From NCBI GenBank assembly GCA_000004695.1, contig CM000155.2, positions 320,001 to 384,000 of the forward strand: 64,000 nt of DNA. The letters are read 5' to 3'. Made by a program: the position numbers and the translations under genes. Below, one piece after another: positions 12,871-43,863 of this stretch. A model generated the notes under the pieces. The model was not told the origin of the DNA. It did not search any database and saw nothing but the letters and a program-made list of their open reading frames with translations. The DNA is from Dictyostelium discoideum (lineage: Eukaryota). The first letter of the stretch is position 1, and every line of letters starts with the position of its first letter.

Positions 12871-12912
<42 letters not shown>

Positions 12913-12923
12913 AAAACAATTAT

Positions 12924-13072
12924 AAAGTTGGTTAAATTGGTAGATTTACAAGTATATCTCAATAAATGATATTTTTATAACAATTTTATAATACTTATTT
13001 AAAAACTATACATCTATTTTACATGATATTGAATTAGAAGGTCCATTTGGTCAACTTTGTAAAATGATTGGG
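12924..13072 (+). other. two short orphan fragments (about 53 and 62 bp) homologous to tgr-like array coding sequence
   Basis: 12924..12976 (aaagttggttaaattggtagatttacaagtatatctcaataaatgatattttt) matches array sequence gaaaaggttaaattggtagatttacaagttaatatctcaataaatggtattttt. 13011..13072 (catctattttacatgatattgaattagaaggtccatttggtcaactttgtaaaatgattgg) matches acatctatctcatgtgatattgaattggtaggtccattcgatcaactttgtaaaatcaaattt. There is no open frame. Confidence 0.6.
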
Positions 13073-13291
13073 TATGTATAAAAAATGATTAAATAATTAG
13101 AATTTATTTAAATTCTAAAAATAAAATAAAATGTTATTTAATTTTTTCAACAGTTTATCAAATAAATAAATAAAGCCTTGTATAGTGAAAATAAAAAAAA
13201 TAAAGATAAAATAGTTTTTTTTTTTTTTTAATAAAAATTTGTTTATTTTATTTATTTGTTTGTTTGTTAGTTTGATTATTCATTTTTTAAT

Positions 13292-18917: not shown

Positions 18918-21906
<2,989 letters not shown>

Positions 21907-22599: not shown

Positions 22600-23712
22600 A
22601 AAAAAACCAATAATCTAAAATGAATCCATAAAAAGAAATATAAATTTTATTTTATTTATAATTATATTCTCAACGATTTAAATCATTTAATTATTTTATT
22701 ACTTTCGTTTAGGCGCTTTTTTTCCCTGCAGTCAGGAAAAAATAATTTAAAATTTCCCTACAACAGAAATTACAATTTTAAATGGAGACCAACTAACCCG
22801 TACTGAAATTTATTATGAATTACCAATAAAATCAAGTTGTTCAATTGTTTCGAACCAAATGATTAAATGTCTTGGTAATTTTATAAATTATTTAGATTTA
22901 TTTAAAAATGGTAAAATTAAAATACAATTTTCAATATGATTATAATTGATAATATCATAAACCAGTGGAGTTGAAAACAAGAGATTGGTTTACAAATTTA
23001 ATCGATGGAGTTATATCAATTTTAAAATCTGGAGAAGTTACATCACAAACAATTAGATATATATAACTTGAACTGGCTTCATTGAGAATGAAAATGGATC
23101 ACTCATAAAAATAATTGGATTGTGATGAATTATTAATTAATGGTGAAAATTTTAATGAAAATACAATTTACAATACATCTGTATATTGCTTTTCAAAAAA
23201 ACAAGTTTATAATTGTTCATTTATAAACTATACATCTATCTCATGTGATATTGAATTGGTAGGTCCATTCGATCAACTTTGTAAAATCAAATTTAATGGG
23301 TAAAGATGAGAATTATAATATTTCAATATCATATTATCCTCCATTAGTTTTAAATTCAACAAAGATTTCGAATTCATCGATTAGTGGAATTATTACAATT
23401 TTTGGTAATGAATTTTATAATCAAATTGATTTAATTACAGTTGGTAAAAGTAAATGTTTAAACTCTACATTTATAAATTCAACATCGATTTCATGTTTTG
23501 TAGAACCTTCAAATTTTATTATTAATCAAACTGAACAACAACAACAACAATATGTTAACATTACAATTAATAGCAAAAGTGGTGGTAATAATTTAATAAT
23601 TTATTCTGGTAATTCAAATAGAATTGATGAAAATAATAAATCAAATAAAAATACAATTGATGATAAACAAACCAACAATGAAATCAAAAATGAATCCATA
23701 AAAGAAATATAA
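22600..23712 (+). pseudogene. decayed edge copy of the tgr-like array: orphan 3' tail (22600..22690), junction, then a C-terminal gene fragment (22741..23712) with internal inversion and frameshifts
   Basis: 22619..22690 matches the last ~70 nt of the array genes ([20 protein letters not shown]). A GC-rich junction ggcgctttttttccctgcagtcagg follows. 22790 onward matches [18 protein letters not shown]... Then 22960..23120 is the reverse complement of the neighbouring coding block (it matches the antisense [15 protein letters not shown] ORFs of the other copies). The distal end reads in frame only with an extra g at aatggGtaaagatg and a 1-nt loss before the tail. There is no upstream signal exon. 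Confidence 0.7.
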
Positions 23713-24768: not shown

Positions 24769-24833
<65 letters not shown>

Positions 24834-24955
24834 TTTGGTTATTGTTATTTACTATTTTTAATTTTTTTTAATGTGTTAATATTTAACTAGTTAAAAAAAT
24901 ACAAATATTCAATTTTGTAACCACTTGTCAATATAATTAAAGAAATTTGCAATTG

Positions 24956-25018
<63 letters not shown>

Positions 25019-27624
25019 AGTTTAAAATTAATATCTATAAATATTAATATTAATAAATATTAATCATTTAATAGATACATTCTCTATATTTTTGTATTTT
25101 TTTAAAAAGAAATCGATGGTTTCCAACACTAATTTTTTCTAATGATTTTATTTTAATTTCAGATTTTACATACACAAAACAATCATTGGAATATACATAT
25201 GATATTGATAGTACATATTATATAAAATGGATTTTTTCAAATTTGGAATATGAATTGGTTTTTGAATGTAAAAATAATAGCAAAGAAAGAACATGTACTG
25301 CTGGTATGTCCATTGATATTGCTAAAAATTTACATGGTCAAATAAAGGTATGCATACGTGGAATTGATAATAATGGTGTATTAGATTGCCATATTGCTTT
25401 TTATGAAGAATATTTTCCAAAGCCAATTATTGAAGGTGACTTTAAACCATCTACCAAAGGTGGTCCTACTATTATGAAAGGTTATTATTTGGCAATTGGT
25501 GCATACTACTATACCATTATCCCTGATACTAGATTGGGTATAATAGGTGATATTTTTAGTAACTCTATTGATGTCACAAATTTAATACTAGACTATAAAG
25601 GTGGTTGTGGCCCAGGAACTATTCAATGGTCAAATGATTTTAAATATAGTTTCAATCATTCAAATCCAATCATTGAAAATATTTTTATTGAAGGTTCATC
25701 TTTTATATCAAAAGGTTCTAATTTTTGTAATTCTTCTGATTCAATTCAAATTTATTTAGATGGTGTTCAAATTGATAAATCAAAAATAAAATCAATTGAT
25801 CATGAGCAATTTGAAATAATTTACACTCAACTATATTCAAAATCAATCAATGTTAAAATAGTATCTGGTGGACTTGAATCGAATATTTACAAATTGGATT
25901 TTAAACCGATACCTTTAAAAATTAATAGTGTTCCAAGATTAAAAGGTGGTTCAGTTACAATAATTGGTGAAAGACTATCTCCACAAGTATATAATTCAAC
26001 AATCATTGTTAAAATTGGTCAATATGATTGTAAAAATGTAATCTCATCAAAAAATGAAATTCTCTGTAATTTAGAATCGGTTCAAAATGTTGAAAAGGTT
26101 AAATTGGTAGATTTACAAGTTAATATCTCAATAAATGGTATTTTTAATGAAAATAATTTATTATTCTCATTCGATGTACCAATAATGTCAGATTTTATAC
26201 TTCCTCAAGGTGAAGTTAAATTAGTTGGTGATTGTTTTGGTTCTTCACAATTGACTCAAGTTAAAATTGACGATGTGTTACAATCCAATATAACAATTAA
26301 TATTAATGAAAAAGAAACAACACTTTCATTTAAGCCAATTAAACCAATTAAAAAATCAAAGTTATATATAATTGTCAATGGTACAAAATCAAATACTATT
26401 GAAATTGATTCATCATTTTTTGTAAAAAGTGTTCCATCTTCACCTTCAGTAAATGGTCAAATTGTAAACTTTACACTTTTCAATATAAATCCAAATAATG
26501 TAAATGCAACACCAATTATGATTTTTCAAAATAATAGTTCAATAAATGCAATTGATTATAAAAATTCAAATGAATACTCAACTCACACATACTCCTTTGA
26601 TATTCCAAAAAGTTGTGGGAGAAATGAGATTACAATTTTAATTGGAGACCAACTAACCCGTACTGAAATTTATTATGAATTACCAATAATATCAAGTTGT
26701 TCAATTGTTCCAAATCAAATGATTAAATGTCTTGGTAATTTTTTAAATTATCTAGATTTATTTAAAAATGGTAAAATTAAAATACAATTTTCAAATATGG
26801 TAATAATTGATAATATTCCAAACAATTCAATTATTTTTATGAGTGATTCATTTTCATTCCCAATGAAGCCAGAGTATAGTTCAAGTGATATATATCTTAT
26901 TGTTTGTGATGAAACTTCTCCATATTTTAAAGTTGATATAACTCCATCGCTTAAATTTGTGAGCCAATCTCTTGTTTTCAACTCCACTGGTGGTGAATTA
27001 TTAATTAATGGTGAAAATTTTAATGAAAATACAATTTACAATACATCTGTATATTGCTTTTCAAATAAACAAGTTTATAATTGTTCATTTATAAACAATA
27101 CATCTATCTCATGTGATATTGAATTGGTAGGTCCATTCGATCAACTTTGTAAAATCAAATTTAATGGTAAAGATGAGAATTATAACATTTCAATATCATA
27201 TTATCCTCCATTAGTTTTAAATTCAACAACGATTTCGAATTCATCGATTGGTGGAATTATTATAATTTTTGGTAATGAATTTTATAATCAAATTGATTCA
27301 ATTACAGTTGGTAAAAGTAAATGTTTAAACTCTACATTTATAAATTCAACATCGATTTCATGTTTTGTAGAACCTTCAAATTTTATTATTAATCAAACTG
27401 AACAACAACAACAATATGTTAACATTACAATTAATAACAAAAGTGGTGGTAATAATTTAATAATTTATTCTGTTAATTCAAATAGAATTGATGAAAATAA
27501 TAAATCAAATAAAAATACAATTGATGATAAACAAACCAACAATGAAATCAAAAATGAATCCATAAAAAGAAATATAAATTTAATTTTATTTATAATTATA
27601 TTCTCAACGATTTTAATCATTTAA
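24609..27624 (+). CDS. tgr-like IPT/TIG-repeat surface protein, array copy 1 (GPI-type tail); join(24609..24687,25163..27624), about 846 aa
   Basis: Exon 1 is [26 protein letters not shown] plus 1 nt, with donor A|GTAAAT. The 475-nt intron contains a 66-nt poly-T and ends ttttaatttcAG. Exon 2 (phase 1) runs ...[20 protein letters not shown]... through repeated IPT-like units ([12 protein letters not shown]...[19 protein letters not shown]; [53 protein letters not shown]; [44 protein letters not shown]). It ends in the hydrophobic tail [16 protein letters not shown] then TAA. Confidence 0.6.
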
Positions 27625-27868
27625 TTAAATTTATTACTTTCGTTATAAAAAAAAATTATACTCCCACCAAAAACAATGATTGAGTATATATAAAAAATGA
27701 TTATTTTTAGTGGTTTTGTGTTAAATAAAAAAAAAAAAATACAATAATAAATTTTGAACATGTTGTTTTTTTTTTTTTATATTTTTTTTTTTTTCTAATT
27801 ATTTTTAAAATAATTTTATTTTTTTTTTTTATTGGTTTTACTGTTTGGGTTATTTTTAATCTCAAATT

Positions 27869-27922
<54 letters not shown>

Positions 27923-28444
27923 TTTGATTATTGTTGTTATTTACTATTTTTAATTTTTTAATATTAAAGTCTCCAAATATTCAGCTATTGTTTATTTTTT
28001 ATATCATTGTTAATGTCATTAATAACTATAACTAGTTATTAATATAAATAAATATCAATCATTTTGTAGATATATTATCTATTTATGTATTTTATAAAAG
28101 ATATTGATAATTTCCAACACCAATTTTTAATTTTTTTATTTGGTTCATTAATATTTTTTTAAAAATTTTTCAATGTTTTAACCAGTTGTCAATGTAATTA
28201 AAGATATTTGCAATTGTTTATTAAAAAAAAAAAAAAAAATTGTTTGTTATTTTTTTAAAAAAAAAAAAAAAAGAGCTACTGTTCATTTTTTAATAAATTA
28301 ATTTTAAATTAATATCTATAACTATTAATATTAATAAATATTAATCATTTATTAGATACATTATCTCTATTTTTTGTATTTTTTTTAAAAAGAAATCAAT
28401 AGTTTCAACACTAATTTTTTCTTATGATTTTATTTTAATTTTAG

Positions 28445-31400
28445 ATTTTACATGCACAAAACAATCATTGGAATATACATATGATATTGATAGTACATAT
28501 TATATAAAATGGATTTTTTCAAATTTGAAATATGAATTGGTTTTTGAATGTAAAAATAATAGCAAAGAAAGAACATGTACTGCTGGTATGTCCATAGATA
28601 TTGCTAAAAATTTACATGGTCAAATAAAGATGTGCGGAACTGATAATAATGGTGTATTAGATTGCCATATGCGTGTATACGAAGAATATTTTCCAAAGCC
28701 AATTATTGAAGGTGACTTTAAACCATCTACCAAAGGTGGTCCTACTATTATGAAAGGTTATTATTTGGCAGTTGGAGTAATTCCTTACTTTACTATTATC
28801 CCTGGTACTATATTGGGAACAATAGGTGATATTTTTAGTAACTCTATAGATGTCACAAATTTAATACTAGACTATAAAGGTGTTGTGGCCCAAGAACTAT
28901 TCAATGGCCAAATGATTTTAAATATAGTTTCAATCATTCAAATCCAATCATTGAAAATATTTTTATTGAAGGTTCATCTTTTATATCAAAAGGTTCTAAT
29001 TTTTGTAATTCTTCTGATTCAATTCAAATTTATTTAGATGGTGTTCAAATTGATAAATCAAAAATAAAATCAATTGATCATGAGCAATTTGAAATAATTT
29101 ACACTCAACTATATTCAAAATCAATCAATGTTAAAATAGTATCTGGTGGACTTGAATCGAATATTTACAAATTGGATTTTAAACCTATACCTTTAAAAAT
29201 TAATAGTGTTCCAAGATTTAAAGGTGGTTCAATTACAATAATTGGTGAAAGACTATCTTCACAAGTAAATAATTCAACAATCATTGTTAAAATTGGTCAA
29301 TATCATTGTAAAAATGTAATCTCATCAAAAAATGAAATTCTCTGTAATTTAGAATCGGTTCCAAATGTTGAAAAGGTTAAATTGGTAGATTTGCAAGTTA
29401 ATATCTCAATAATGGTATTTTTAATGAAAATAATTTATTATTCTCATTCGATGTACCAATAATATCAGATTTTATACTTCCTCAAGGTGAAGTTAAATTA
29501 GTTGGTGATTGTTTTGGTTCTTCACAATTGACTCAAGTTAAAATTGACGATGTGTTACAATCCAATATAACAATTAATATTAATGAAAAAGAAACAACAC
29601 TTTCATTTAAGCCAATTAAACCAATTAAAAAGTCAAAGTTATATATAATTGTCAATGGTACAAAATCAAATACTATTGAAATTGATTCATCATTTTTTGT
29701 AAAAAGTGTTCCATCTTCACCTTCAGTAAATGGTCAAATAGTAAACTTTACACTTTTCAATATAAATCCAAATAATGTAAATGCAACACCAATTATGATT
29801 TTTCAAGATAATAGTTCAATAAAAGCAATTGATTATAAAAATTCGAATGAATACTCGACTCACACATACTCTTTTGATATTCCAAAAAGTTGTGGGAGAA
29901 ATGAAATTACAATTTTAATTGGAGACCAACTAACCCGTACTGAAATTTATTATGAATTACCAATAATATCAAGTTGTTCAATTGTTTCAAATCAAATGAT
30001 TAAATGTCTTGGTAATTTTACAAATTATTTAGATTTATTTAAAAATGGTAAAATTAAAATACAATTTTCAAATATGATAATAATTGATAATATTCCAAAC
30101 AATCCAATTATTTTTATGAGTGATTCATTTTCATTCCCAATAAAGCCAGAGTATAGTTCAAGTGATATATATCTTATTGTTTGTGATGAAACTTCTCTAG
30201 ATTTTAAAGTTGATATAACTCCATCGCTTAAATTTGTGAGCCAATCTCTTGTTTTCAACTCCACTGGTGGTGAATTATTAATTAATGGTGAAAATTTTAA
30301 TGAAAATACAATTTACAATACATCTGTATATTGCTTTTCAAATAAACAAGTTTATAATTGTTCATTTATAAACAGTACATCTATCTCATGTGATATTGAA
30401 TTGGTAGGTCCATTCGATCAACTTTGTAAAATCAAATTTAATGGAAAAGATGAGAAGTATAACATTTCAATATCATATTATCCTCCATTAGTTTTAAATT
30501 CAACAACGATTTCGAATTCATCAATTGGTGGAATTATTACAATTTTAATTGGAGACCAACTAACCCGTACTGAAATTTATTATGAATTACCAATAATATC
30601 AAGTTGTTCAATTGTTTCAAATCAAATGATTAAATGTCTTGGTAATTTTACAAATTATTTAGATTTATTTAAAAATGGTAAAATTAAAATACAATTTTCA
30701 AATATGGTAATAATTGATAATATTCCAAACAATCCAATTATTTTTATGAGTGATTCATTTTCATTCCCAATGAAACCAGAGTATAGTTCAAGTGATATAT
30801 ATCTTATTGTTTGTGATGAAACTTCTCCATATTTTAAAGTTGATATAACTCCATCGCTTAAATTTGTGAGCCAATCTCTTGTTTTCAACTCCACTGGTGG
30901 TGAATTATTAATTAATGGTGAAAATTTTAATGAAAATACAATTTACAATACATCTGTATATTGCTTTTCAAATAAACAAGTTTATAATTGTTCATTTATA
31001 AACAATACATCTATCTCATGTGATATTGAATTGGTAGGTCCATTCGATCAACTTTGTAAAATCAAATTTAATGGTAAAGATGAGAAGTATAACATTTCAA
31101 TATCATATTATCCTCCATTAGTTTTAAATTCAACAACGATTTCAAATTCATCAATTGGTGGAATTATTACAATTTTTGGTAATGAATTTTATAATCAAAT
31201 TGATTCAATTACAGTTGGTAAAAGTAAATGTTTAAACTCTACATTTATAAATTCAACATCGATTTCATGTTTTGTAGAACCTTCAAATTTTATTATTAAT
31301 CAAACTGAACAACAACAACAATATGTTAACATTAAAATTAATAGCAAAAGTGGTGGTAATAATTTAATAATTTATTCTGGTAATTCAAATAGAATTGATG

Positions 31401-31531
31401 AAAATAATAAATCAAATAAAAATACAATTGATGATAAACAAACCAACAATGAAATCAAAAATGAATCCATAAAAAGAAATATAAATTTAATTTTATTTAT
31501 AATTATATTCTCAACGATTTTAATCATTTAA
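28445..31531 (+). pseudogene. tgr-like array copy 2: lacks the signal exon, has two frameshifts and a 627-bp in-frame internal tandem duplication
   Basis: The coding region is split over ORFs 28468..29037, 29172..29462 and 29528..31531. A g is missing at ~28891 (ggtgttgtggcc versus ggtggttgtggcc in other copies). An a is missing at ~29410 (ctcaataatggt versus ctcaataaatggt). Segment ~29918..30544 ([14 protein letters not shown]...SIGGIITI) is repeated at ~30545..31180, and the copies differ at about 1% of sites. The upstream ATG exon seen in other units is absent: 27790-27840 joins the preceding 3' flank directly to the intron tail ttttactgtttgggtt. Confidence 0.75.
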
Positions 31532-32151
31532 TTTAATTTATTATTTTCGTTATAAAAAAAAAATTAAACTCCTACCAAAAAAAATTATTGAGTATATATA
31601 AAAAATGATTATTTTTAGTGGTTTTGTGTTAAATAAAAAAAAAAAATAATACAATAATAAATTTTGAACATGTTGTTTTTTTTTTTTATAATTTTTTTTT
31701 TTTTTAATTATTTTTAAAATAATTATTTTTTTGTTTTTACTATTTGATAAGTGTGTTATTGTGAATTTGATAATTAAAATAATATATAAAATCAAAAATA
31801 ATTAAAAATATAACCACTTCTCATAAACTACTTTTTATGGTAGTGGGTGAAAAAAAAAAAAATAATAATTTTCATTTCAATTAAAAAAACAAGCCCAAAA
31901 AAGTTTAATACAATTAATAATATTCTAATATGATGAAAGAAACATCAAGTGGTGGGTGTGGTAAACTTGGCACACAGTGTTAAAAAAAAACAATATGAGT
32001 AATATTGAAAATCATACAACAAAACTGATAATATTAAAATAAATTAGTGGGATGTGTGTGTTGAAAAACATTATTTAATAAATTATGTGATTGTTTATTT
32101 TTAATTTAATATTGAAGCATTACCTTATTGTTTTTATTATTATTTTATTAT

Positions 32152-32196
<45 letters not shown>

Positions 32197-32395
32197 TATC
32201 AATATTTTTTTTTTTTTTAATTATTATTAATATTTATGTTTTTTTTTTAATTATTAATATTTTTGTTTTTATATATTATTTTAATTTTTATTTTTTTTTA
32301 TTTTTTTTATTTCAAATCATTAACAGTAATAATAAATTATTTAACATCCTCAAAAAAACAATTTCATAATTAAAATAATAAATAGTAAATCAAAA

Positions 32396-32559
32396 ATGAA
32401 ATTTATTATATTATTTTTTATTTTATATTTAGTTTCTGATACATTAGGATCTTTAAATGAACCAGTTGTCAAGAGTAAATATTTTAAATATAAATATAAT
32501 TTAATTTTTTTTTTTTATTGTTTTTATTGTTTGGGTTATTTTTATTTCTCAAATTTAAT

Positions 32560-32621
<62 letters not shown>

Positions 32622-35592
32622 TTTGAATTATATTTGTTATTTACTATTTTTAATTTTTTAATATTAAAGTCTCCAAATATTCAGCTATTGTTTATTTTTT
32701 ATATCATTGTTAATGTCATTAATAACTATAACTAGTTATTAATATAAATAAAAATCAATCATTTTGTAGATATATTATCTATTTATGTATTTTATAAGAT
32801 ATTGATAATTTCCAACACTAATTTTTAATTTTTTGTTTGGTTCATTATTATTTTTTTAAAAATTGTTCAATGTTTTAACCACTTTTCAATGTAATTAAAG
32901 ATATTTGCAATTGTTTATTAAAAAAAAAAAAAAAAATTGTTTGTTATTTTATTAAAAAAAAAAGAGCTACTGTTCATTTTTTAATAAATTAATTTTAAAT
33001 CAATATCTATAACAATTGATATTAATAAATAATAATCATTTAATAGATACATTATCTATATTTTTTGTAATTTTTTTAAAAAGAAATCAATAGTTTCCAA
33101 CACTAATTTTTTCTTATGATTTTATTTTAATTTCAGATTTTACATGCACAAAACAATCATTGGAATATACATATGATATTGATAGTACATATTATACAAA
33201 ATGGATTTTTTCAGATTTGGAATATGAATTGGTTTTTGAATGTAAAAATAATAGCAAAGAAAGAACATGTACTGCTGGTATGTCCATTGATATTGCTAAA
33301 AATTTACATGGTCAAATAAAGATGTGCGGAACTGATAATAATAGTGTATTAGATTGCCATTCGAATTACGAAGAATATTATCCAAAGCCAATTATTGAAG
33401 GTGACTTTAAACCATCTACCAAAGGTGGTCCTACTATTATGAAAGGTTATTATTTGGCAGTTGGTGCATACTACTATAACATTATCCCTTATACTAGATT
33501 GGGTATTATAGGTGATGTTCATAGTAACTCTATAGATGTCACAAATTTAATACTAGACTATAAAGGTGGTTGTGGCCCAAGAACTATTCAATGGCCAAAT
33601 GATTTTAAATATAGTTTCAATCATTCAAATCCAATCATTGAAAATATTTTTATTGAAGGTTCATCTTTTATATCAAAAGGTTCTAATTTTTGTAATTCTT
33701 CTGATTCAATTCAAATTTATTTAGATGGTGTTCAAATTGATAAATCAAAAATAAAATCAATTGATCATGAGCAGTTTGAAATAATTTACACTCAACTATA
33801 TTCAAAATCAATCAATGTTAAAATAGTATCTGGTGGACTTGAATCGAATATTTACAAATTGGATTTTAAACCTATACCTTTAAAAATTAATAGTGTTCCA
33901 AGATTAAAAGGTGGTTCAATTACAATAATTGGTGAAAGACTATCTTCACAAGTAAATAATTCAACAATCATTGTTAAAATTGGTCAATATGATTGTAAAA
34001 ATGTAATCTCATCAAAAAATGAAATTCTCTGTAATTTAGAATCGGTTCCAAATGTTGAAAAAGTTAAATTGGTAGATTTACAAGTTAATATCTCAATAAA
34101 TGGTATTTTTAATGAAAATAATTTATTATTCTCATTCGATATACCAATAATATCAGATTTTATACTTCCACAAGGTGAAGTTAAATTAGTTGGTGATTGT
34201 TTTGGTTCTTCACAATTGACTCAAGTTAAAATTGACGATGTATTACAATCCAATATAACAATTAATATTAATGAAAAAGAAACAACACTTTCATTTAAGC
34301 CAATTAAACCAATTAAAAAATCAAAGTTATATATAATTGTCAATGGTACAAAATCAAATACTATTGAAATTGATTCATCATTTTTTGTAAAAAGTGTTCC
34401 ATCTTCACCTTCAGTAAATGGTCAAATTGTAAACTTTACTCTTTTCAATATAAATCCAAATAATGTTAATGCAACACCAATTATGATTTTTCAAGATAAT
34501 AGTTCAATAAAAGCAATTGATTATAAAAATTCAAATGAATACTCAACTCACACATACTCTTTTGATATTCCAAAAAGTTGTGGGAGAAATGAAATTACAA
34601 TTTTAATTGGAGACCAACTAACCCGTACTGAAATTTATTATGAATTACCAATAATATCAAGTTGTTCAATTGTTTCAAATCAAATGATTAAATGTCTTGG
34701 TAATTTTTTAAATTATTTAGATTTATTTAAAAATGGTAAAATTAAAATACAATTTTCAAATATGGTAATAATTGATAATATTCCAAACAATCCAATTATT
34801 TTTATGAGTGATTCATTTTCATTCCCAATGAAGCCAGAGTATAGTTCAAGTGATATATATCTTATTGTTTGTGATGAAACTTCTCTAGATTTTAAAGTTG
34901 ATATAACTCCATCGCTTAAATTTGTGAGCCAATCTCTTGTTTTCAACTCCACTGGTGGTGAATTATTAATTAATGGTGAAAACTTAAATGAAAATACAAT
35001 TTACAATACATCTGTATATTGCTTTTCAAATAAACAAGTTTATAATTGTTCATTTATAAACAATACATCTATATCATGTGATATTGAATTGTTAGGTCCA
35101 TTCGATCAACTTTGTAAAATCAAATTTAATAGTAAAGATGAGAATAATAACATTTCAATATCATATTATCCTCCATTAGTTTTAAATTCAACAACGATTT
35201 CAAAATCATCAACTGGTGGAATTATTACTATTTTTGGTAATGAATTTTATAATCAAATTGATTCAATTACAGTTGGTAAAAGTAAATGTTTAAACTCTAC
35301 ATTTATAAATTCAACATCGATTTCATGTTTTGTAGAACCTTCAAATTTTAATATTAACCAAACTGAACAACAAAAAAAACAATATGTTAACATTATAATT
35401 AATGGTAAAAGTGGTGGTAATAATTTAATAATTTATTCTGGTAATTCAAATAGAATTGATGAAAATAACAAATCAAATAAAAATACAATTGACGAAAAAC
35501 AAACCAATAATGAAATCAAAAATGAATCTATTAAAAGAAATATAAATTTTATATTATTTATAATTATATTCTCAACAATTTTAATCATATAA
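32396..35592 (+). CDS. tgr-like IPT/TIG-repeat surface protein, array copy 3 (GPI-type tail); join(32396..32474,33137..35592)
   Basis: Same architecture as copy 1: exon 1 [26 protein letters not shown] plus 1 nt, donor GTAAAT, a 662-nt intron with a ~75-nt poly-T, acceptor tttcAG at 33135-33136, and the 810-aa ORF 33160..35592 in phase. Confidence 0.6.
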
Positions 35593-36397
35593 TTTAATTT
35601 ATTAATTTCATTGTAAAAAAAAAAAAAAATAAAACTCCAACCAAAAACAATTATTGGGTATATATAAAAAATGATTATTTTTGGTGGGTTAAAAATAAAA
35701 TATAATACAATAATAAATTTTGAACTTATTTTTTTTTTTTTATTTTTTGATAATTTTTTTTTTTTTAATTATTTTTAAAATAATTATTTTTTTGTTTTTA
35801 CTATTTGATAAGTGTGATTGTGAATATTAATAATTTAAATAAAATATAAAATTAAAAATGATTAAAAATATAACCACTTATCATAAAATACTTTTTTTGG
35901 CAGTGGTTGAAAAAAAAAAAAAAAATAATAATATTCATTTCAATTAAAAAAAACACATCCAAAAAAGTTTAATAAAAAATAAATAGTATTCTAAAATGAT
36001 GAAAGAAACACCAATTGGTGGGTGTGGTAAACTTGACACAGTGTTTAATAAACATGATGAGTAATATTGAAAATCATACAACAAAACTGATAAAAATAAA
36101 TTAGTGTGGGAGTGTGTGTTGAAAAACATTTTTCAATAAATTATTTGATTGTTTTTTTTTAATTTACTATTGAAGCATCGTTACCTTAATTTTATTATTA
36201 TTATTATTATTATTTTTTTTTTTCTTTAATATTTTTTTTAATTATTATTATAATTTTTATTTTTTTTAATTATTAATATTTTTGTTTTTATATTTTTTTA
36301 ATTATTAATATTTTTTATTTTTTTATTTCAAATCATAAATTATTTAACATCCTCAAAAAAACAATTTTAATATTAAAATAATAATAGTAAATCAACA

Positions 36398-39105
36398 ATG
36401 AAAATTATTATATTTTTTTTTATTTTATATTTATTTTCCGATACATAAGGATCTTTAGTTGTCAAGAGTAAATATATAAATTAAAATAATTTTAATTTTT
36501 TTTAGTTTTCATTATATCTATATGTACAAAATATATATGTGTCTTAGATAATCATTGAATAGATACATTATTTATATTTTGTATTTTTTTAAAAAGAAAT
36601 CAATGGTTTCCAACTCTAATTTTTTCTAATATTTACATTTTAATTTCAGATTTTACATGCACAAAACAATCATTGGAATATACATATGATATCGATAGTA
36701 CATATTATACAAAATGGATTTTTTCAGATTTGGAATATGAATTGGTTTTTGAATGTAAAAATAATAGCAAAGAAAGAACATGTACTGCTGGTATGTCCAT
36801 TGATATTGCTAAAATTTTACATGGTCAAATAAAGAAGTGCGGAACTGATAATAATAGTGTATTAGATTGCCATTTGAAATACGAAGAATATTATCCAAAG
36901 CCAATTATTGAAGGTGACTTTAAACCATCTACCAAAGGTGGTCCTACTATTATGAAAGGTTATTATTTGGCAGTTGGTGCATACTACTATAACATTATCC
37001 CTTATACTAGATTGGGTATTATAGGTGATGTTCATTGTAACTCTATAGATGTCACAAATTTAATACTAGACTATAAAGGTGGTTGTGGCCCAAGAACTAT
37101 TCAATGGCCAAATGATTTTAAATATAGTTTCAATCATTCAAATCCAATCATTGAAAATATTTTTATTGAAGGTTCATCTTTTATATCAAAAGGTTCTAAT
37201 TTTTGTAATTCTTCTGATTCAATTCAAATTTATTTAGATGGTGTTCAAATTGATAAATCAAAAATAAAATCAATTGATCATGAGCAGTTTGAAATAATTT
37301 ACACTCAACTATATTCAAAATCAATCAATGTTAAAATAGTATCTGGTGGACTTGAATCGAATATTTACAAATTGGATTTTAAACCTATACCTTTAAAAAT
37401 TAATAGTGTTCCAAGATTAAAAGGTGGTTCAATTACAATAATTGGTGAAAGACTATCTTCACAAGTAAATAATTCAACAATCATTGTTAAAATTGGTCAA
37501 TATCATTGTAAAAAGGTAATCTCATCAAAAAATGAAATTCTATGTAATTTAGAATCGGTTCCAAATGTTGAAAAAGTTAAATTGGTAGATTTACAAGTTA
37601 ATATCTCAATAAATGGTATTTTTAATGAAAATAATTTATTATTCTCATTCGATATACCAATAATATCAGATTTTATACTTCCACAAGGTGAAGTTAAATT
37701 AGTTGGTGATTGTTTTGGTTCTTCACAATTAACTCAAGTTAAAATTGACGATGTGTTACAATCTAATATAACAATTAATATTAATGAAAAAGAAACAACA
37801 CTTTCATTTAAGCCAATTAAACCAATTAAAAAATCAAAGTTATATATAATTGTCAATGGTACAAAATCAAATACTATTGAAATTGATTCATCATTTTTTG
37901 TAAAAAGTGTTCCATCTTCACCTTCAGTAAATGGTCAAATTGTAAACTTTACTCTTTTCAATATAAATCCAAATAATGTTAATGAAACACCAATTATGAT
38001 TTTTCAAGATAATAGTTCAATAAATGCAATTGATTATAAAAATTCAAATGAAAACTCGACTCACACATACTCTTTTGATATTCCAAAAAGTTGTGGGAGA
38101 AATGAAATTACAATTTTAATTGGAGACCAACTAACCCGTACTGAAATTTATTATGAATTACCAATAATATCAAGTTGTTCAATTGTTTCAAATCAAATGA
38201 TTAAATGTCTTGGTAATTTTTTAAATTATCTAGATTTATTTAAAAATGGTAAAATTAAAATACAATTTTCAAATATGGTAATAATTGATAATATTCCAAA
38301 CAATCCAAATATTTTTATGAGTGATTCATTTTCATTCCCAATGAAGCCAGAGTATAGTTCAAGTGATATATATCTTATTGTTTGTGATGAAACTTCTCCA
38401 GATTTTAAAGTTGATATAACTCCATCGCTTAAATTTGTGAGCCAATCTCTTGTTTTCAACTCCACTGGTGGTGAATTATTAATTAATGGTGAAAATTTTA
38501 ATGAAAATACAATTTACAATACATCTGTATATTGCTTTTCAAATAAACAAGTTTATAATTGTTCATTTATAAACAATACATCTATCTCATGTGATATTGA
38601 ATTGGTAGGTCCATTCGATCAACTTTGTAAAATCAAATTTAATGGTAAAGATGAGAATTATAACATTTCAATATCATATTATCCTCCATTAGTTTTAAAT
38701 TCAACAACGATTTCGAATTCATCGATTGGTGGAATTATTATAATTTTTGGTAATGAATTTTATAATCAAATTGATTCAATTACAGTTGGTAAAAGTAAAT
38801 GTTTAAACTCTACATTTATAAATTCAACATCGATTTCATGTTTTGTAGAACCTTCAAATTTTATTATTAATCAAACTGAACAACAACAACAACAATATGT
38901 TAACATTACAATTAATAACAAAAGTGGTGGTAATAATTTAATAATTTATTCTGGTAATTCAAATAGAATTGATGAAAATAATAAATCAAATAAAAATACA
39001 ATTGATGATAAACAAACCAACAATGAAATCAAAAATGAATCCATAAAAAGAAATATAAATTTAATTTTATTTATAATTATATTCTCAACGATTTTAATCA
39101 TTTAA
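36398..39105 (+). CDS. tgr-like array copy 4: exon 2 (36650..39105) is intact but the signal-peptide exon at 36398 carries an in-frame TAA and a 9-nt deletion; possibly a pseudogene
   Basis: Exon 2 (810-aa ORF 36673..39105) is full length. The homologous exon 1 reads atgaaaattattatattttttttt..ttttccgatacaTAAggatctttagttgtcaagag, against ..gatacaTTAggatctttaaatgaaccagttgtcaagag in copies 3 and 5. The intron is reduced to ~170 nt, compared with ~660 nt in the other units. Confidence 0.5.
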
Positions 39106-39943
39106 TTAAATTTATTACTTTCGTTATAAAAAAAATTATACTCCCACCAAAAACAATGATTGAATATATATAAAAAATGATTATTTTTAGTGGTTTTGTG
39201 TTAAATAAAAAAAAAAAAAATACAATAATAAATTTTGAACATGTTGTTTTTTTTTTTTTATATTTTTTTTTTTTTCTAATTATTTTTATAATAATTATTT
39301 TTTTGTTTTTGCTATTTGATAAGTGTGTTATTGTGAATTTTGATAATTAAAATAATATATAAAATCAAAAATAATTAAAAATATAACCACTTCTCATAAA
39401 CTACTTTTTATGGTAGTGGGTGAAAAAAAAAAAAATAATAATTTTCATTTCAATTAAAAAAAACAAGCCTAAAAAATTTTAATACAATTAATAGTTTTCT
39501 AATATGATGAAAGAAACATCAAGTGGTGGGTGTGGTAAACTTGGCACACAGTGTTAAAAAAAAACAATATGAGTAATTTTGAAAATCATACAACAAAACT
39601 GATAATATTAAAATAAATTAGTGGGATGTGTGTGTTGAAAAACATTATTTAATAAATTATGTGATTTGTTTATTTTAATTTAATATTGAAGCATTACCTT
39701 ATTGTTTTTATTATTATTTTTTTTTTTTTTTTTTTTTTTTTTTATTATTATCAATATTTTTTTTTTTTAATTATTATTAATATTTATGTTTTTTTAATTA
39801 TTAATATTTTTGTTTTTATATATTATTTTAATTATTATTTTTTTATTATTTTTTTTATTTCAAATCATTTACAGTAATAATAAATTATTTAACATCCTCA
39901 AAAAAACAATTTCATTATTAAAATAATAAATAGTAAACCAAAA

Positions 39944-40105
39944 ATGAAATATATTATATTATTTTTTATTTTATATTTAGTTTCTGATACATTAGGATCT
40001 TTAAATGAACCAGTTGTCAAGAGTAAATATTTTAAATATAAAAATAATTTTATTTTTTTTTTTTTATTGTTTTTACTGTTTGGGTTATTTTTATATCTCA
40101 AATTT

Positions 40106-40151
<46 letters not shown>

Positions 40152-43100
40152 TTTGATTATTGTTGTTATTTACTATTTTTAATTTTTTAATATTAAAGTC
40201 TCCAAATATTCAGCTATTGTTTATTTTTTTATATCATTGTTAATGTCATTAATAACTATAACTAGTTATTAATATAAATAAATATCAATCATTTTGTAGA
40301 TATATTATCTATTTATGTATTTTATAAAAGATATTGATAATTTCCAACACCAATTTTTAATTTTTTTATTTGGTTCATTAATATTTTTTTAAAAAATTTT
40401 CAATGTTTTAACCACTTGTCAATGTAATTAAAGATATTTGCAATTGTTTATTAAAAAAAAAAAAAAAAAAAAAATTGTTTGTTATTTTTTTAAAAAAAAA
40501 AAAAAAGAGCTACTGTTCATTTTTTAATAAATTAATTTTAAATTAATATCTATAACTATTAATATTAATAAATATTAATCATTTATTAGATACATTATCT
40601 CTATTTTTTGTATTTTTTTAAAAAGAAATCAATGGTTTCCAACACTAATTTTTTCTTATGATTTTATTTTAATTTTAGATTTTACATGCACAAAACAATC
40701 ATTGGAATATACATATGATATTGATAGTACATATTATTCAAAATGGATTTTTTCAAATTTGAAATATGAATTGGTTTTTGAATGTAAAAATAATAGCAAA
40801 GAAAGAACATGTACTGCTGGTATGTCCATTGATATTGCTAAAAATTTACATGGTCAAATAAAGATGTGCAGAACTGATAATAATGGTGTATTAGATTGCC
40901 ATTCGAATTACGAAGAATATTTTCCAAAGCCAATTATTGAAGGTGACTTTAAACCATCTACCAAAGGTGGTCCTACTATTATGAAAGGTTATTATTTGGC
41001 AGTTGGAGTAATTCCTTACTTTACTATTATCCCTGATACTATATTGGGAACAATAGGTGATATTTTTAGTAACTCTATAGATGTCACAAATTTAATACTA
41101 GACTATAAAGGTGGTTGTGGCCCAAGAACTATTCAATGGCCAAATGATTTTAAATATAGTTTCAATCATTCAAATCCAATCATTGAAAATATTTTGATAG
41201 AAGGTTCATCTTTTATATCAAAAGGTTCTAATTTTTGTAATTCTTCTGATTCAATTCAAATTTATTTAGATGGTGTTCAAATTGATAAATCAAAAATAAA
41301 ATCAATTGATCATGAACAATTTGAAATAATTTACACTCAACTATATTCAAAATCAATAAATGTTAAAATAGTATCTGGTGGACTTGAATCGAATATTTAC
41401 AAATTGGATCTTAAACCTATACCTTTAAAAATTAATAGTGTTCCAAGATTAAAAGGTGGTTCAATTACAATAATTGGTGAAAGACTATCTTCACAAGTAA
41501 ATAATTCAACAATCATTGTTAAAATTGGTCAATATGATTGTAAAAATGTAATCTCATCAAAAAATGAAATTCTCTGTAATTTAGAATCGGTTCCAAATGT
41601 TGAAAAGGTTAAATTGGTAGATTTACAAGTTAATATCTCAATAAATGGTATTTTTAATGAAAATAATTTATTATTCTCATTCGATATACCAATAATATCA
41701 GATTTTATACTTCCTCAAGGTGAAGTTAAATTAGTTGGTGATTGTTTTGGTTCTTCACAATTGACTCAAGTTAAAATTGACGATGTGTTACAATCCAATA
41801 TAACAATTAATATTAATGAAAAAGAAACAACACTTTCATTTAAGCCAATTAAACCAATTAAAAAATCAAAGTTATATGTAATTGTCAATGGTACAAAATC
41901 AAATACTATTGAAATTGATTCATCATTTTTTGTAAAAAGTGTTCCATCTTCACCTTCAGTAAATGGTCAAATTGTAAACTTTACACTTTTCAATATAAAT
42001 CCAAATAATGTTAATGCAACACCAATTATGATTTTTCAAGATAATAGTTCAATAAAAGCAATTGATTATAAAAATTCAAATGAATACTCAACTCACACAT
42101 ACTCTTTTGATATTCCAAAAAGTTGTGGGAGAAATGAAATTACAATTTTAATTGGAGACCAACTAACCCGTACTGAAATTTATTATGAATTACCAATAAT
42201 ATCAAGTTGTTCAATTGTTTCAAATCAAATGATTAAATGTCTTGGTAATTTTATAAATTATCTAGATTTATTTAAAAATGGTAAAATTAAAATACAATTT
42301 TCAAATATGGTAATAATTGATAATGTTCCAAACAATCCAATTATTTTTATGAGTGATTCATTTTCATTCCCAATGAAGCCAGAGTATAGTTCAAGTGATA
42401 TATATCTTATTGTTTGTAATGAAATTTCTCCAGATTTTAAAGTTGATATAACTCCATCGCTTAAATTTGTGAGCCAATCTCTTGTTTTCAACTCCACTGG
42501 TGGTGAATTATTAATTAATGGTGAAAATTTTAATGAAAATACAATTTACAATACATCTGTATATTGCTTTTCAAATAAACAAGTTTATAATTGTTCATTT
42601 ATAAACTATACATCTATCTCATGTGATATTGAATTGGTAGGTCCATTCGATCAACTTTGTAAAATCAAATTTAATGGAAAAGATGAGGAGTATAACATTT
42701 CAATATCATATTATCCTCCATTAGTTTTAAATTCAACAACGATTTCGAATTCATCAATTGGTGGAATTATTACAATTTTTGGTAATGAATTTTATAATCA
42801 AATTGATTCAATTACAGTTGGTAAAAGTAAATGTTTAAACTCTACATTTATTAACTCAACATCAGTTTCATGTTTTTTAGAACCTTCCAAAATTATTATT
42901 GATCAAAGCAAACAACAACAGCAACAACAACAACAACAACAACAATATGTTAACATCACGATTAATGGTAAAAGTGGTGGTAATAATTTAATTATTTATT
43001 TTGATAATTCAATTATTGAAGTTAAAAACCAATCAAGCCAAAGTGATAAAAACAACAACAACAACAACAACAACAATGGTAAAAATATAAATAATGGTGA

Positions 43101-43863
43101 TAGTAAAACTGATGGTAGAAGTTTTTATGAAAAAAATAAAAAATGGATAACAGTATTAATAATAATTGGAAGTTTGGCATTACTTTTATTTATCTTTTTT
43201 GGTATAATTTATTGTAATAGAAAAAACGGTACTGTTATCTATTGGAAATATATTATGTGTCGCGGAATCAAAGAAAAAAAATATAAATTTAAAAATAGAA
43301 AAGAGATAAAACAAATACAAGAATTAAGACATACATTGGATAATGCAGAGACAATTTTTGCTGACTTTGAATTAGATAATATAATAACTTATTCAGAGTA
43401 TCAACTTACACCCGAAAATCGTCTACGAAAAGAACAACAAGAATTAGCTCGAGAAAATTATATTGAAACTTACCCAGATTATTATTTACATATAAATAAA
43501 ACTAAAAATTTACCAAATAATGATTCATTACCTCCAAATCAAGTTGAAAATTTACCAAATAATAATTCATTACCTCCAAATAAAATTGAAAATTCATTAC
43601 CTCCGAATCAAACTGAAAATTTACCAAATAATAATTCATTACCTCCAAATCAAACTGAAACATTACAAGAAGATTCTTTACCTCCAAATCAAACTGAAAC
43701 ATTACCAGAAGTTTCATTACCTCCAAATCATATTGAAACATTACCAGAAGTTTCATTACCTCCAAATCAAATTGAAACATTACCAGAAGTTTCATTACCT
43801 CCAAATCATATTGAAAAACTAACAGACAATTCATCATCATCTCAAGACCCAAGCTCTTCATAA
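39944..43863 (+). CDS. tgr-like IPT/TIG-repeat protein, array copy 5, with a transmembrane helix and a repetitive cytoplasmic tail; join(39944..40022,40679..43863)
   Basis: Exon 1 is [26 protein letters not shown] plus 1 nt, the intron is 656 nt, and the 1053-aa ORF begins at 40702. It is identical in layout to the other copies up to ~42850, then diverges: Q12 tract, N-rich linker, TM helix [23 protein letters not shown], basic stretch [17 protein letters not shown], and 8 tandem 11-12-aa units SLPPNQ(T/I)E(N/T)LP(N/E)(N/V). Confidence 0.65.

What the first reader, a model, noticed from the sequence alone, without database searches (positions are those of the whole stretch)
29900..31200. In-frame 627-bp internal tandem duplication inside pseudogenised copy 2, with junction at a microhomology
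The block encoding [14 protein letters not shown]...SIGGIITI (two IPT-like units, 209 codons) occurs twice in tandem. The junction reads GGIITI|LIGDQL, where both parental contexts share attacaatttt, so unequal exchange at microhomology is likely. The two repeats differ by about 1% (SLDF/SPYF, IKPEY/MKPEY, INST/INNT). Either the duplication is not brand new, or one half has since been converted by a neighbouring copy. Copy 2 also has two 1-nt frameshifts and lacks its signal exon. The array is therefore generating domain-number variants as well as dying copies.
Basis: seen in the sequence. Interest (0 to 1): 0.6.

Follow-up and report, generated by a model that had tools for sequence, protein, structure and literature searches.

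The report
Internal duplication in dead tgr gene
A disabled copy of a Dictyostelium cell-surface (Tgr/"tiger") gene carries a genuine 630-base head-to-tail internal duplication formed at an 11-base repeat, which is an ordinary structural mutation in a gene family already known for rapid gene birth and death.

Summary
The window is Dictyostelium discoideum AX4 chromosome 6, with a tandem array of Tgr-family genes on the + strand. In copy 2, 29906-30535 and 30536-31165 are head-to-tail copies of a 630-bp (210-codon) block, not 627 bp. They are in frame and differ at 8 nt (5 aa). ATTACAATTTT sits at both outer edges and at the junction.

Copy 2 is dead. It has two 1-nt deletions (about 28881 and 29410) and no signal exon. 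An independent de novo long-read assembly (probably AX2-214) reproduces 28292-31800 at 100% identity, so this is not an assembly artefact.

Both halves share a copy-2-specific base, so the event was intragenic. Four of the 8 differences match bases found in neighbouring copies (P about 1e-5), which suggests gene conversion. The other four suggest roughly 1e8 generations of age.

The breakpoints are not in register with Ig-domain boundaries. The block is two domains plus a ~35-aa chimeric stub, so it is not a clean domain-number variant.

Tgr birth-and-death evolution is already published, so interest is low to moderate. Two side findings stand out. The AX2-like assembly has eight array copies, created by a clean copy 4 x copy 1 crossover. 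Three independent rearrangements share a breakpoint within about 10 bp.

The parts
28445..31531 (+). Main exon of tgr array copy 2, a pseudogene. It is readable only in three different frames (28468-29037, 29172-29462, 29528-31531). The stop codon TAA is at 31529-31531, immediately after the transmembrane segment.
   Evidence: ORF list; tblastn with P0001 splits at 28881, 29411 and the duplication; splice-acceptor motif ends at 28444; Pfam Ig_TgrO1 hit.
29906..30535 (+). Duplication unit A (630 bp, 210 codons). It has 3 private substitutions (30077 G>A, 30142 G>A, 30375 A>G). It also carries paralogue-matching states at 30198 (T, as in copy 3) and 30445 (A, as in copy 5).
30536..31165 (+). Duplication unit B (630 bp). 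It has 1 private substitution (30775 G>A). It also carries paralogue-matching states at 30830 (T, as in copy 1), 31075 (T, as in copies 1, 3 and 4) and 31144 (A, as in copy 3).
29906..29916 (+). Left copy of the 11-nt microhomology ATTACAATTTT (codons for ITI-L, in the second-to-last beta-strand of Ig domain D5).
   Evidence: strand assignment.
30536..30546 (+). Junction copy of ATTACAATTTT. To its left is the context of the right-hand parent (GGTGGAATT); to its right is the context of the left-hand parent (AATTGGAGACC).
31166..31176 (+). Right copy of ATTACAATTTT, in the [11 protein letters not shown] motif (second strand of the last Ig/TIG-like domain, D8).
30776..31086 (+). Candidate gene-conversion tract. 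Unit B is identical to copy 1 across block columns 241-551, which covers two of the paralogue-matching differences (30830 and 31075). This is suggestive only.
   Evidence: Site table: copy 1 and unit B have no differences between columns 241 and 551.
28881..28882 (+). Frameshift 1: one G missing (AAAGGTGGTTGT in copies 1, 3, 4 and 5; AAAGGTGTTGT in copy 2).
29410..29411 (+). Frameshift 2: one A missing (CAATAAATGG in the other copies; CAATAATGG in copy 2).
27806..27831 (+). T-rich join where the 3' flank of copy 1 runs directly into sequence homologous to intron 1 of the other units. About 750 bp is absent, equivalent to 31740-32490 and including the promoter region and signal exon.
   Evidence: Self-BLAST coordinates; exon-1 search; sequence comparison.
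22612..23712 (+). Scrambled remnant 'copy 0'. It holds the tail of another copy (22612-22709), 56 nt of filler, then tgr sequence that starts at 22766, 2-3 nt from the same ATTACAATTTT site. An inverted piece lies at 22943-23139, followed by the 3' end of the gene.

Best explanation
Copy 2 of a five-copy tandem array of Tgr-family (IPT/TIG, Ig_TgrO1) membrane-protein genes on D. discoideum chromosome 6 underwent a single illegitimate tandem duplication of 630 bp within its large exon. The event joined two identical 11-nt sequences (ATTACAATTTT) that lie 630 bp apart in the ancestral gene. Possible mechanisms are replication slippage or template switching, or microhomology-mediated unequal sister-chromatid exchange; these cannot be told apart from sequence alone. 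Because 630 is a multiple of 3 the frame is kept, but the two breakpoints lie at non-equivalent positions in different Ig domains. The product would contain two extra complete domains plus a ~35-residue chimeric stub.

The gene is non-functional: it has no promoter or signal exon and carries two 1-nt deletions upstream. The duplication is therefore best seen as a neutral lesion in a decaying paralogue. Whether it preceded or followed inactivation is not known.

After the event the two halves diverged by a few point substitutions and, most likely, by short-tract gene conversion from neighbouring copies. The structure predates laboratory culture, since it is shared base for base by the AX4 and AX2 lineages. 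At the genome-average substitution rate it is of the order of 1e8 cell generations old.

Shown: the structure, the microhomology, the intragenic origin, the pseudogene lesions, presence in an independent assembly, and the domain register. Inferred: the molecular mechanism, neutrality, conversion and age.
For: - Structure and junction.
- Junction specificity: an intact exon holds only 11-16 pairs of direct repeats of at least 11 nt, and the junction sits exactly on one of them.
- Intragenic origin: both halves share the copy-2-specific C at block column 116 and the copy-5-like states at columns 115, 552, 618 and 635.
- Not an artefact: GCA_054883475.1, a de novo Nanopore+Illumina assembly from the PMC12745789 project, is 100.000% identical over window 28292-31800. 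It carries the duplication in both of its copy-2 units, yet differs structurally from AX4 elsewhere in the array, so it is not a copy of the reference.
- Pseudogene status.
- Derived state: 24 family members from D. discoideum, D. cf. discoideum, D. citrinum, D. dimigraforme and D. firmibasis all have a single block. Longer members differ only by a C-terminal tail. No database protein covers more than 60% of the double-block query. Wild-strain arrays have single blocks and lack the junction.
- Domain register: AF2 model of the intact paralogue, pLDDT 80-88 in this region; Pfam on single domains; Ig/IPT-like fold matches.
- Conversion: 4 of 8 differences have both alleles among the paralogues, P = 1.6e-6 to 1.3e-5. 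Copy 2 is also mosaic overall, copy-5-like at the 5' end (1/227, 9/430 differences) and copy-1/4-like at the 3' end (2-3/357).
- Neutrality: 5 nonsynonymous to 3 synonymous differences, against 79% nonsynonymous expected at random.
- Age: 4 private differences per 630 bp at 2.47e-11 per site per generation (PMC7466956) gives about 1.3e8 generations (Poisson range 3.5e7 to 3.3e8).
Against: - The order of duplication and inactivation is unknown, because both frameshifts lie upstream of the block.
- There are no expression data.
- The strain identity of GCA_054883475.1 (AX2-214) is inferred from near-identity to AX4 and from the BioProject description. It was not read from the record.
- The age estimate assumes the genome-average rate, whereas tgr regions are reported to be hypermutable (PMC12745789).
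- The specific copy 1 -> unit B conversion tract is only suggestive. Two of the four paralogue-matching sites are C>T or G>A transitions that could be parallel mutations.
- The clustering of two other rearrangement breakpoints at the same site hints that something more than random microhomology use may be involved.
Confidence: 0.85

Rival explanations
1. The halves differed from the moment of formation. The duplication arose by unequal exchange between two already diverged copy-2 alleles (in a sexual cross) or between two near-identical copy-2-type units of a larger array. Under this view the 8 differences are inherited polymorphism, not later divergence or conversion.
For: - Four of the 8 differences are alleles that also occur among the paralogues.
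- tgr arrays differ by 6-9% between strains.
- Arrays with two copy-2 units do exist.
- Copy 2 switches affinity from copy-5-like to copy-1/4-like along its length.
Against: - Both halves share the copy-2-specific base at column 116 and the same copy-5-like states on both sides of the differing sites, so any two parents were very close relatives.
- In the one array with two copy-2 units, those units are identical.
- The switch in affinity is not sharp at the junction: unit A differs from copies 5 and 4 by 11 and 12 sites, and unit B differs from copies 1 and 4 by 10 each.
Confidence: 0.12
2. The duplication results from a site-specific fragile point or recombination hotspot in tgr exons at ...AATGAAATTACAATTTT..., and not from chance use of a microhomology.
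For: Three independent rearrangements have a breakpoint within about 10 bp:
- the copy 2 duplication;
- an independent in-frame 207-bp duplication in a wild strain's annotated-intact gene (L004 11940-12353, P0005);
- the 5' end of the copy 0 remnant at 22766.
The rough chance of this is about 3e-3.
Against: - The test is post hoc and rests on only three precise cases.
- There is no unusual hairpin potential at the site (z about 0).
- Other fragment ends are scattered (residues 302, 594, 613-632, 653, 740).
- One apparent case (P0037) is only a frameshift, and the L006 fragments start nearer residue 507.
Confidence: 0.2
3. Assembly artefact: the block is single in the real genome and was doubled by mis-assembly of near-identical array reads.
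For: The AX4 reference is a 2005 Sanger assembly of a repeat-rich, 78% A+T genome. Short-read data are reported to be unreliable for tgr genes (bioRxiv 10.1101/2025.10.22.684067).
Against: - An independent de novo long-read assembly has the same 3.5 kb at 100% identity, including all 8 differences between the halves, and has it twice.
- The junction 60-mer is present there.
- The halves are not identical to each other or to any other copy, so they cannot be misplaced reads from another copy.
Confidence: 0.02
4. Copy 2 keeps an ancestral two-block architecture, and the other copies lost one block by deletion between the ATTACAATTTT repeats.
For: Deletion between direct repeats is as easy mechanistically as duplication.
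Against: - Every other family member in five or more species has one block.
- The halves are 98.7% identical, whereas neighbouring Ig domains are unrecognisably diverged from one another.
- The junction creates an out-of-register stub.
- Independent identical deletions in all lineages would be required.
Confidence: 0.02
5. The duplication is a functional ectodomain-length variant, a new recognition allele that is or was under selection.
For: - It is in frame.
- Tgr ectodomain Ig domains mediate recognition in TgrB1/C1 (PMC12745789).
- A different internal duplication occurs in an annotated-intact wild-strain gene.
Against: - There is no signal exon and there are two frameshifts.
- The breakpoints are out of register with the domains.
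- The substitution pattern is neutral-like.
- The function of this subfamily is unknown (PMC12745789).
Confidence: 0.04

Closest known systems
Birth-and-death evolution of the Dictyostelium tgr family, especially the prolific tgrA/H/I/O clade (Holland et al., PNAS 2025, PMC12745789; Polo Prieto et al., bioRxiv 10.1101/2025.10.22.684067)
   Same: Both involve tandem and dispersed duplicates, many partial genes and pseudogenes (26 tgr pseudogenes in AX4), mosaic genes produced by recombination between paralogues, and structural differences between strains.
   Different: Those papers concentrate on the tgrB/C locus on chromosome 3 and on whole-gene gain and loss. I did not find this chromosome 6 array, an intra-exon 630-bp duplication, its microhomology junction or the AX2/AX4 copy-number difference described in the texts held here. 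The exact dictyBase gene names for these copies could not be determined with the tools.
Microhomology-mediated in-frame internal tandem duplications, e.g. FLT3-ITD in human leukaemia (from my own knowledge, not checked here)
   Same: Both are head-to-tail duplications inside a coding exon with the frame kept, a short identical sequence at both edges and at the junction, and an origin attributed to replication slippage or template switching.
   Different: FLT3-ITDs are somatic, tens of bp long and gain-of-function. This one is germ-line (clonal lineage), 630 bp long, old, and sits in a dead gene.
Domain-repeat copy-number variation by unequal crossing-over, e.g. the kringle IV-2 repeats of human LPA (from my own knowledge)
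   Same: Both show a change in the number of extracellular repeat domains through tandem duplication of a coding block.
   Different: There the exchange uses long homology between repeats and is in register with domain (and exon) boundaries. Here homology is only 11 nt, the breakpoints lie at non-equivalent positions of unrelated-looking domains, and a non-domain stub results.
Non-allelic homologous recombination between array members (seen here in the AX2-like assembly)
   Same: It occurs in the same array and has the same general outcome, tandem duplication.
   Different: The 11.4-kb AX2-type duplication used a 188-bp identical stretch between copy 4 and copy 1 and produced a perfect chimera. 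The 630-bp duplication had no such homology to use.

Membership tests
Tgr (tiger) family of Dictyostelium IPT/TIG transmembrane proteins | Ig_TgrO1 (PF24612) and/or IPT/TIG (PF01833) domains in the ectodomain | tested here: met
   Copy 1: Ig_TgrO1 E = 4e-33 and TIG E = 1e-10. Copy 2 long ORF: Ig_TgrO1 E = 2e-16. Fold matches to plexin IPT3-6, MET and contactins.
Tgr (tiger) family of Dictyostelium IPT/TIG transmembrane proteins | N-terminal signal peptide and C-terminal transmembrane segment | tested here: not met
   The transmembrane segment is present (...[17 protein letters not shown] before the stop at 31529). The signal exon is absent for copy 2 only. Copy 2 is therefore a family member by descent but not a functional one.
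Tgr (tiger) family of Dictyostelium IPT/TIG transmembrane proteins | Close homologues annotated in Dictyostelium genomes | tested here: met
   Copy 1 equals XP_635221 at 100% identity. 31 homologues were found, all from Dictyostelium.
Unprocessed (duplicated) pseudogene | Disabling lesions relative to intact paralogues | tested here: met
   Two 1-nt deletions unique to copy 2, and loss of about 750 bp holding the promoter and exon 1.
Unprocessed (duplicated) pseudogene | Intron and flanks retained, in an array next to its parent genes | tested here: met
   The 3' part of intron 1 and its acceptor are retained. Array position.
Unprocessed (duplicated) pseudogene | No functional transcript or protein | not testable with these tools
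   No expression data are available here.
Microhomology-mediated tandem duplication (slippage / template switch / MMEJ-type) | Head-to-tail copies with no filler, and the same short sequence once at each outer edge and once at the junction | tested here: met
   ATTACAATTTT at 29906-29916, 30536-30546 and 31166-31176. Similarity ends abruptly outside these.
Microhomology-mediated tandem duplication (slippage / template switch / MMEJ-type) | No extended homology between the two parental breakpoint regions | tested here: met
   16 of the 20 positions on either side of the 11-mer differ between the left and right contexts.
Non-allelic homologous recombination between repeated domains or paralogues (as the origin of the 630-bp duplication) | Breakpoints inside long (tens to hundreds of bp) homologous stretches, at equivalent positions of the repeats | tested here: not met
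   There are only 11 nt of identity. The left breakpoint is at about position 70 of 81 in an Ig_TgrO1 domain, and the right one at about residue 22 of the last domain.
Interparalogue gene conversion | Differences between recent duplicates coincide with alleles present in other paralogues more often than chance | tested here: met
   4 of 8 differences, P = 1.6e-6 to 1.3e-5; treated as 3 independent events, P = 1e-4 to 5e-4.
Interparalogue gene conversion | A contiguous tract assignable to one donor | tested here: inconclusive
   Unit B is identical to copy 1 over columns 241-551, but many intervening variable sites are singletons of other copies.

The most novel reading that the evidence does not exclude
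The sequence ...AATGAAATTACAATTTT..., in the second-to-last strand of the fifth Ig domain of these tgr genes, may be a recurrent breakpoint. Three independent rearrangements have an edge within about 10 bp of it: the 630-bp duplication here, a separate in-frame 207-bp duplication in an apparently intact gene of a wild strain, and the 5' truncation of the copy 0 remnant. If real, it would be a local hotspot that repeatedly remodels the ectodomain length of a rapidly evolving cell-surface family, including in genes that are still intact.
Probability: 0.15. Interest if true: 0.55.

Novelty: new member of a known kind. Interest (0 to 1): 0.3.

Why it matters
The finding gives a cleanly resolved example, checked against a second assembly, of how Tgr ectodomains change length. 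It shows a microhomology-mediated intra-exon duplication followed by exchange with neighbouring paralogues, in a family whose best-known members (TgrB1/C1) set kin recognition in a model for social evolution.

It matters little for function, because the carrier is a dead gene and the duplication does not respect domain boundaries.

Two by-products are more useful in practice. First, the two most widely used laboratory lineages appear to differ in this array: five copies in the AX4 reference and eight in the AX2-like assembly, through one clean copy 4 x copy 1 crossover. This matters for read mapping, knock-outs and copy-number calls. Second, there is a possible recurrent breakpoint that could be tested across the new long-read genomes.

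Tried and rejected
- Tandem Repeats Finder cannot see the duplication because its longest period is 500. Self-BLAST and an offset comparison were used instead.
- I looked for the same duplication in other strains and species. No protein in the 5.8-billion-sequence collection covers more than 60% of the double-block ORF. The wild-strain loci L003-L005 have single blocks about 93% identical and lack the junction. Exact look-ups of the junction-containing ORF from its TTG or first ATG found nothing.
- I tested whether longer family members (920-1087 aa) have extra Ig domains. They do not. The extra length is a C-terminal cytoplasmic tail, except for P0005.
- I tested whether DNA hairpins explain the breakpoint site. 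They do not: z-scores range from -0.1 to 1.2, and nearby inverted repeats are weak.
- I followed two further apparent 'residue 520' breakpoints (P0037, P0029). One is a frameshift; the others are imprecise and nearer residue 507.
- I could not obtain the dictyBase subfamily names of these copies. The literature searches returned nothing relevant, and no supplement text is held for PMC12745789.
- I decided against a second AlphaFold job on the hypothetical duplicated protein. Homologues would align to only one of the two blocks, so a low-confidence stub would not be informative.
- The bacterial-type promoter/terminator scan and the RNA-family tools were not used, because this is a eukaryotic protein-coding locus.
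Full report
**What the window is.** The window has about 20% G+C, with long homopolymer and trinucleotide runs. The large ORF at 25186-27624 is 100% identical to D. discoideum AX4 protein XP_635221, on a contig of 3,602,379 bp. That length matches chromosome 6 as I recall it. Pfam finds Ig_TgrO1 (PF24612) and IPT/TIG (PF01833) domains, so these are Tgr ("tiger") family genes.

Self-BLAST and ORF listing show a + strand tandem array:
- a scrambled remnant, 'copy 0' (about 22612-23712);
- copy 1 (main exon 25186-27624);
- copy 2 (28445-31531, broken into three frames);
- copy 3 (33160-35592);
- copy 4 (36673-39105);
- copy 5 (40702-43863, the only one with a long cytoplasmic tail).

Each intact gene has a short signal exon ([26 protein letters not shown]) about 500 bp upstream.

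**Checking the observation.** 29906-30546 and 30536-31176 are 641 nt long, 98.75% identical and ungapped. At an offset of exactly 630 nt there are 8 mismatches, and similarity ends abruptly at both ends. The unit is therefore 630 bp (210 codons), not 627. ATTACAATTTT occurs at the left edge (29906-29916), at the junction (30536-30546) and at the right edge (31166-31176).

The 8 differences give 5 amino-acid changes (I/V, I/M, L/P, D/Y, S/N) and 3 synonymous changes. Copy 2 has two private 1-nt deletions, a G at about 28881 and an A at about 29410. It also lacks a signal exon. The 3' flank of copy 1 runs at about 27806-27831 straight into sequence homologous to intron 1 of the other units, which skips about 750 bp.

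**Is it an assembly artefact?** No. GCA_054883475.1 belongs to a set of de novo Nanopore+Illumina Dictyostelium assemblies (PMC12745789). From its near-identity to AX4 I infer that it is the AX2-214 lab strain. It holds the same locus. Window 28292-31800 is 100.000% identical there, including the junction, all 8 differences and both frameshifts. That assembly is not a copy of the reference, because its array is structurally different (see below). All of its base differences from the window lie in homopolymer-rich spacers.

**Origin of the duplication.** Both halves share a base found in no other copy (C at block column 116). They also share the same copy-5-like states on both sides of the differing sites. 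The event therefore happened within the copy 2 lineage and not between different paralogues.

An intact exon contains only 11-16 pairs of direct repeats of 11 nt or more, and the junction sits exactly on one of them. The sequences flanking the two 11-mers are unrelated. This is the signature of a microhomology-mediated tandem duplication, by slippage, template switching or microhomology-mediated unequal sister-chromatid exchange. It is not homologous unequal crossing-over between repeated domains. The single-block state is ancestral:
- all 24 aligned family members from at least five species have one block, and longer members differ only in a C-terminal tail;
- wild-strain arrays have single blocks about 93% identical and no junction;
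- no database protein covers more than 60% of the double-block ORF.

**Divergence of the halves.** Three differences are private to half A and one to half B. At the other four (columns 293, 295, 540, 609) each of the two alleles is also present in one or more neighbouring copies. Only 1.2-2.1% of possible single-base changes would match a paralogue. Four matches out of 8 therefore has P of about 1.6e-6 to 1.3e-5, and even counted as three events P is 1e-4 to 5e-4. Sequence exchange with neighbouring copies is thus the most likely source.

Half B is identical to copy 1 across columns 241-551, which would explain two of those sites in one tract, but this is only suggestive. Copy 2 is also mosaic as a whole: copy-5-like in the intron and 5' exon (1/227 and 9/430 differences) and copy-1/4-like in the 3' exon (2-3/357). 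An alternative is that the halves came from two slightly different copy-2 alleles or units and differed from the start. I rate this lower because the halves share copy-2-specific states.

**Age.** The published base-substitution rate is 2.47e-11 per site per generation (PMC7466956). At that rate the four private differences imply about 1.3e8 generations (Poisson range 3.5e7 to 3.3e8), far older than laboratory culture. This is consistent with identical sequence in the AX4 and AX2 lineages. The estimate is an upper bound if this region is hypermutable, as reported for the tgrB/C locus (PMC12745789).

**Domain register.** An AlphaFold2 model of intact copy 1, built with a 24-sequence family alignment, has mean pLDDT 74.5 and pLDDT 80-88 across residues 440-760. 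It shows a string of beta-sandwich domains, and Foldseek matches plexin IPT3-6, the MET ectodomain and contactins.

The left breakpoint (ITI|LIG, residues 516-521) lies in the second-to-last strand of the domain spanning about 446-530. That domain is a complete Ig_TgrO1 domain (profile positions 4-80 of 81, E = 5e-18), and the breakpoint falls at about profile position 70. The right breakpoint (GGIITI|FG, residues 723-730) is in the second strand of the last domain, about 22 residues after its start.

The 210-codon block therefore comprises the last ~13 residues of D5, then D6, then D7, then the first ~22 residues of D8. A translated product would carry two extra whole domains plus a ~35-residue chimeric stub. 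The duplication is in frame but out of register. Together with the missing signal exon, the two frameshifts and a neutral-looking 5:3 nonsynonymous-to-synonymous ratio (79% nonsynonymous expected at random), I read it as a neutral lesion in a decaying gene and not as a working domain-number variant.

**Comparison with what is known.** The tgr family is already described as one of the most prolific and unstable families in Dictyostelium. AX4 has 38 genes and 26 pseudogenes. [quoted passage not shown] The present case is a new, well-resolved instance of a known kind. I did not find this array or this duplication described in the texts available.

**Things found on the way.**

1. The AX2-like assembly has eight array copies: 1, 2, 3, H, 2', 3', 4, 5. 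H matches copy 4 at all informative sites up to window 37764 and copy 1 from 26475 onward (300 of 300 sites). The duplicated 8 kb has no mismatches. This is a very recent homologous unequal crossover between copy 4 and copy 1, or else a collapse in the AX4 reference. Spontaneous gene duplication is otherwise rare in this species, at 1.18e-8 per gene per generation (PMC9849192).

2. A wild strain's annotated-intact gene (L004, P0005, 920 aa) has its own in-frame 207-bp tandem duplication, with one mismatch. Its left edge is 6-8 nt from the ATTACAATTTT site.

3. The copy 0 remnant begins 2-3 nt from the same site. Three independent breakpoints within about 10 bp is unlikely by chance, roughly 3e-3. 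But the test is post hoc, there is no hairpin propensity at the site, and other fragment ends are scattered. I treat a hotspot as an open possibility with a probability of about 0.15-0.2.

4. AX4 copies differ from one another by 0.6-3.2% in this block, but from wild-strain copies by 6-9%. This points to concerted evolution or lineage-specific expansion.

**Verdict.** The mechanistic interpretation (microhomology junction, not brand new, conversion by neighbours, dead copy) is supported. The claim that the array is producing domain-number variants is not supported by this case. The phenomenon is ordinary for this family, so interest is low to moderate.

Noticed in passing
window 24805-43100; L001+L002 (GCA_054883475.1, JBTAPE010000005.1 268813-314613): The AX2-like de novo assembly has eight array copies (1, 2, 3, H, 2', 3', 4, 5) against five in this window. 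H is a perfect chimera: copy 4 up to window 37764 and copy 1 from 26475 onward (300 of 300 informative sites). The duplicated 8 kb has 0 mismatches. This is either a very recent unequal crossover or a collapse in the AX4 reference.
   Followed up: yes
L004 11940-12353 (GCA_054859355.1; gene 10001-13143, P0005, 920 aa): An independent in-frame 207-bp (69-codon) tandem duplication with 1 mismatch, in an annotated-intact wild-strain paralogue. The junction is AACAATCCA|AATGAAATTACAATTTC, and the left edge lies 6-8 nt from the microhomology site used in AX4 copy 2.
   Followed up: partly
window 22612-23712: Scrambled remnant 'copy 0'. It has the last ~100 bp of another copy (22612-22709), 56 nt of unrelated and relatively G+C-rich filler, then tgr exon sequence starting at 22766, 2-3 nt from the same ATTACAATTTT site. 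An inverted segment lies at 22943-23139, followed by the 3' end of the gene (ORF 23296-23712). The same structure is present in the AX2-like assembly.
   Followed up: partly
window 36398-36457: Copy 4's signal exon is degenerate and has an in-frame stop ([19 protein letters not shown]), and its upstream region differs from the other units. Copy 4 is therefore probably also non-functional despite its intact 810-codon main exon. Only copies 1, 3 and 5 have AX4 protein records.
   Followed up: partly
window 43012-43863: Homology among the array units ends at about 43012. Only copy 5 continues into a ~225-residue cytoplasmic tail with Pro/Asn-rich repeats (direct repeats at 43505-43826). Copies 1-4 stop immediately after the transmembrane segment, whereas relatives in other species have a tail.
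   Followed up: partly
window 26639-42779 vs L003, L004, L005: In the 630-bp block the AX4 copies differ from one another by 4-20 sites but from every copy in two wild D. discoideum assemblies by 38-58 sites. The two wild strains' copies intermix with each other (10-21 sites). The pattern fits concerted evolution or lineage-specific expansion.
   Followed up: partly
window 19289-19398: A perfect (ACA)36-37 array lies inside the ankyrin/protein-kinase ORF 18918-21029. Its length differs by 6 nt (two units) between the window and the AX2-like assembly, which is an in-frame repeat-length difference between lab lineages.
   Followed up: no
window 13292-15805 (- strand): A further, distantly related Tgr-family gene (837-aa ORF; Ig_TgrO1 E = 1.5e-26, TIG E = 2e-20; about 26% identical to copy 1) lies upstream of the array in the opposite orientation.
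   Followed up: no
L003 22399-23216; L005 6222-7039: In a wild strain, short reverse-oriented tgr fragments (P0001 residues 594-740 and 49-151) flank the arrays, next to a DDE_Tnp_4 transposase-like gene (L003 17860-18234).
   Followed up: no
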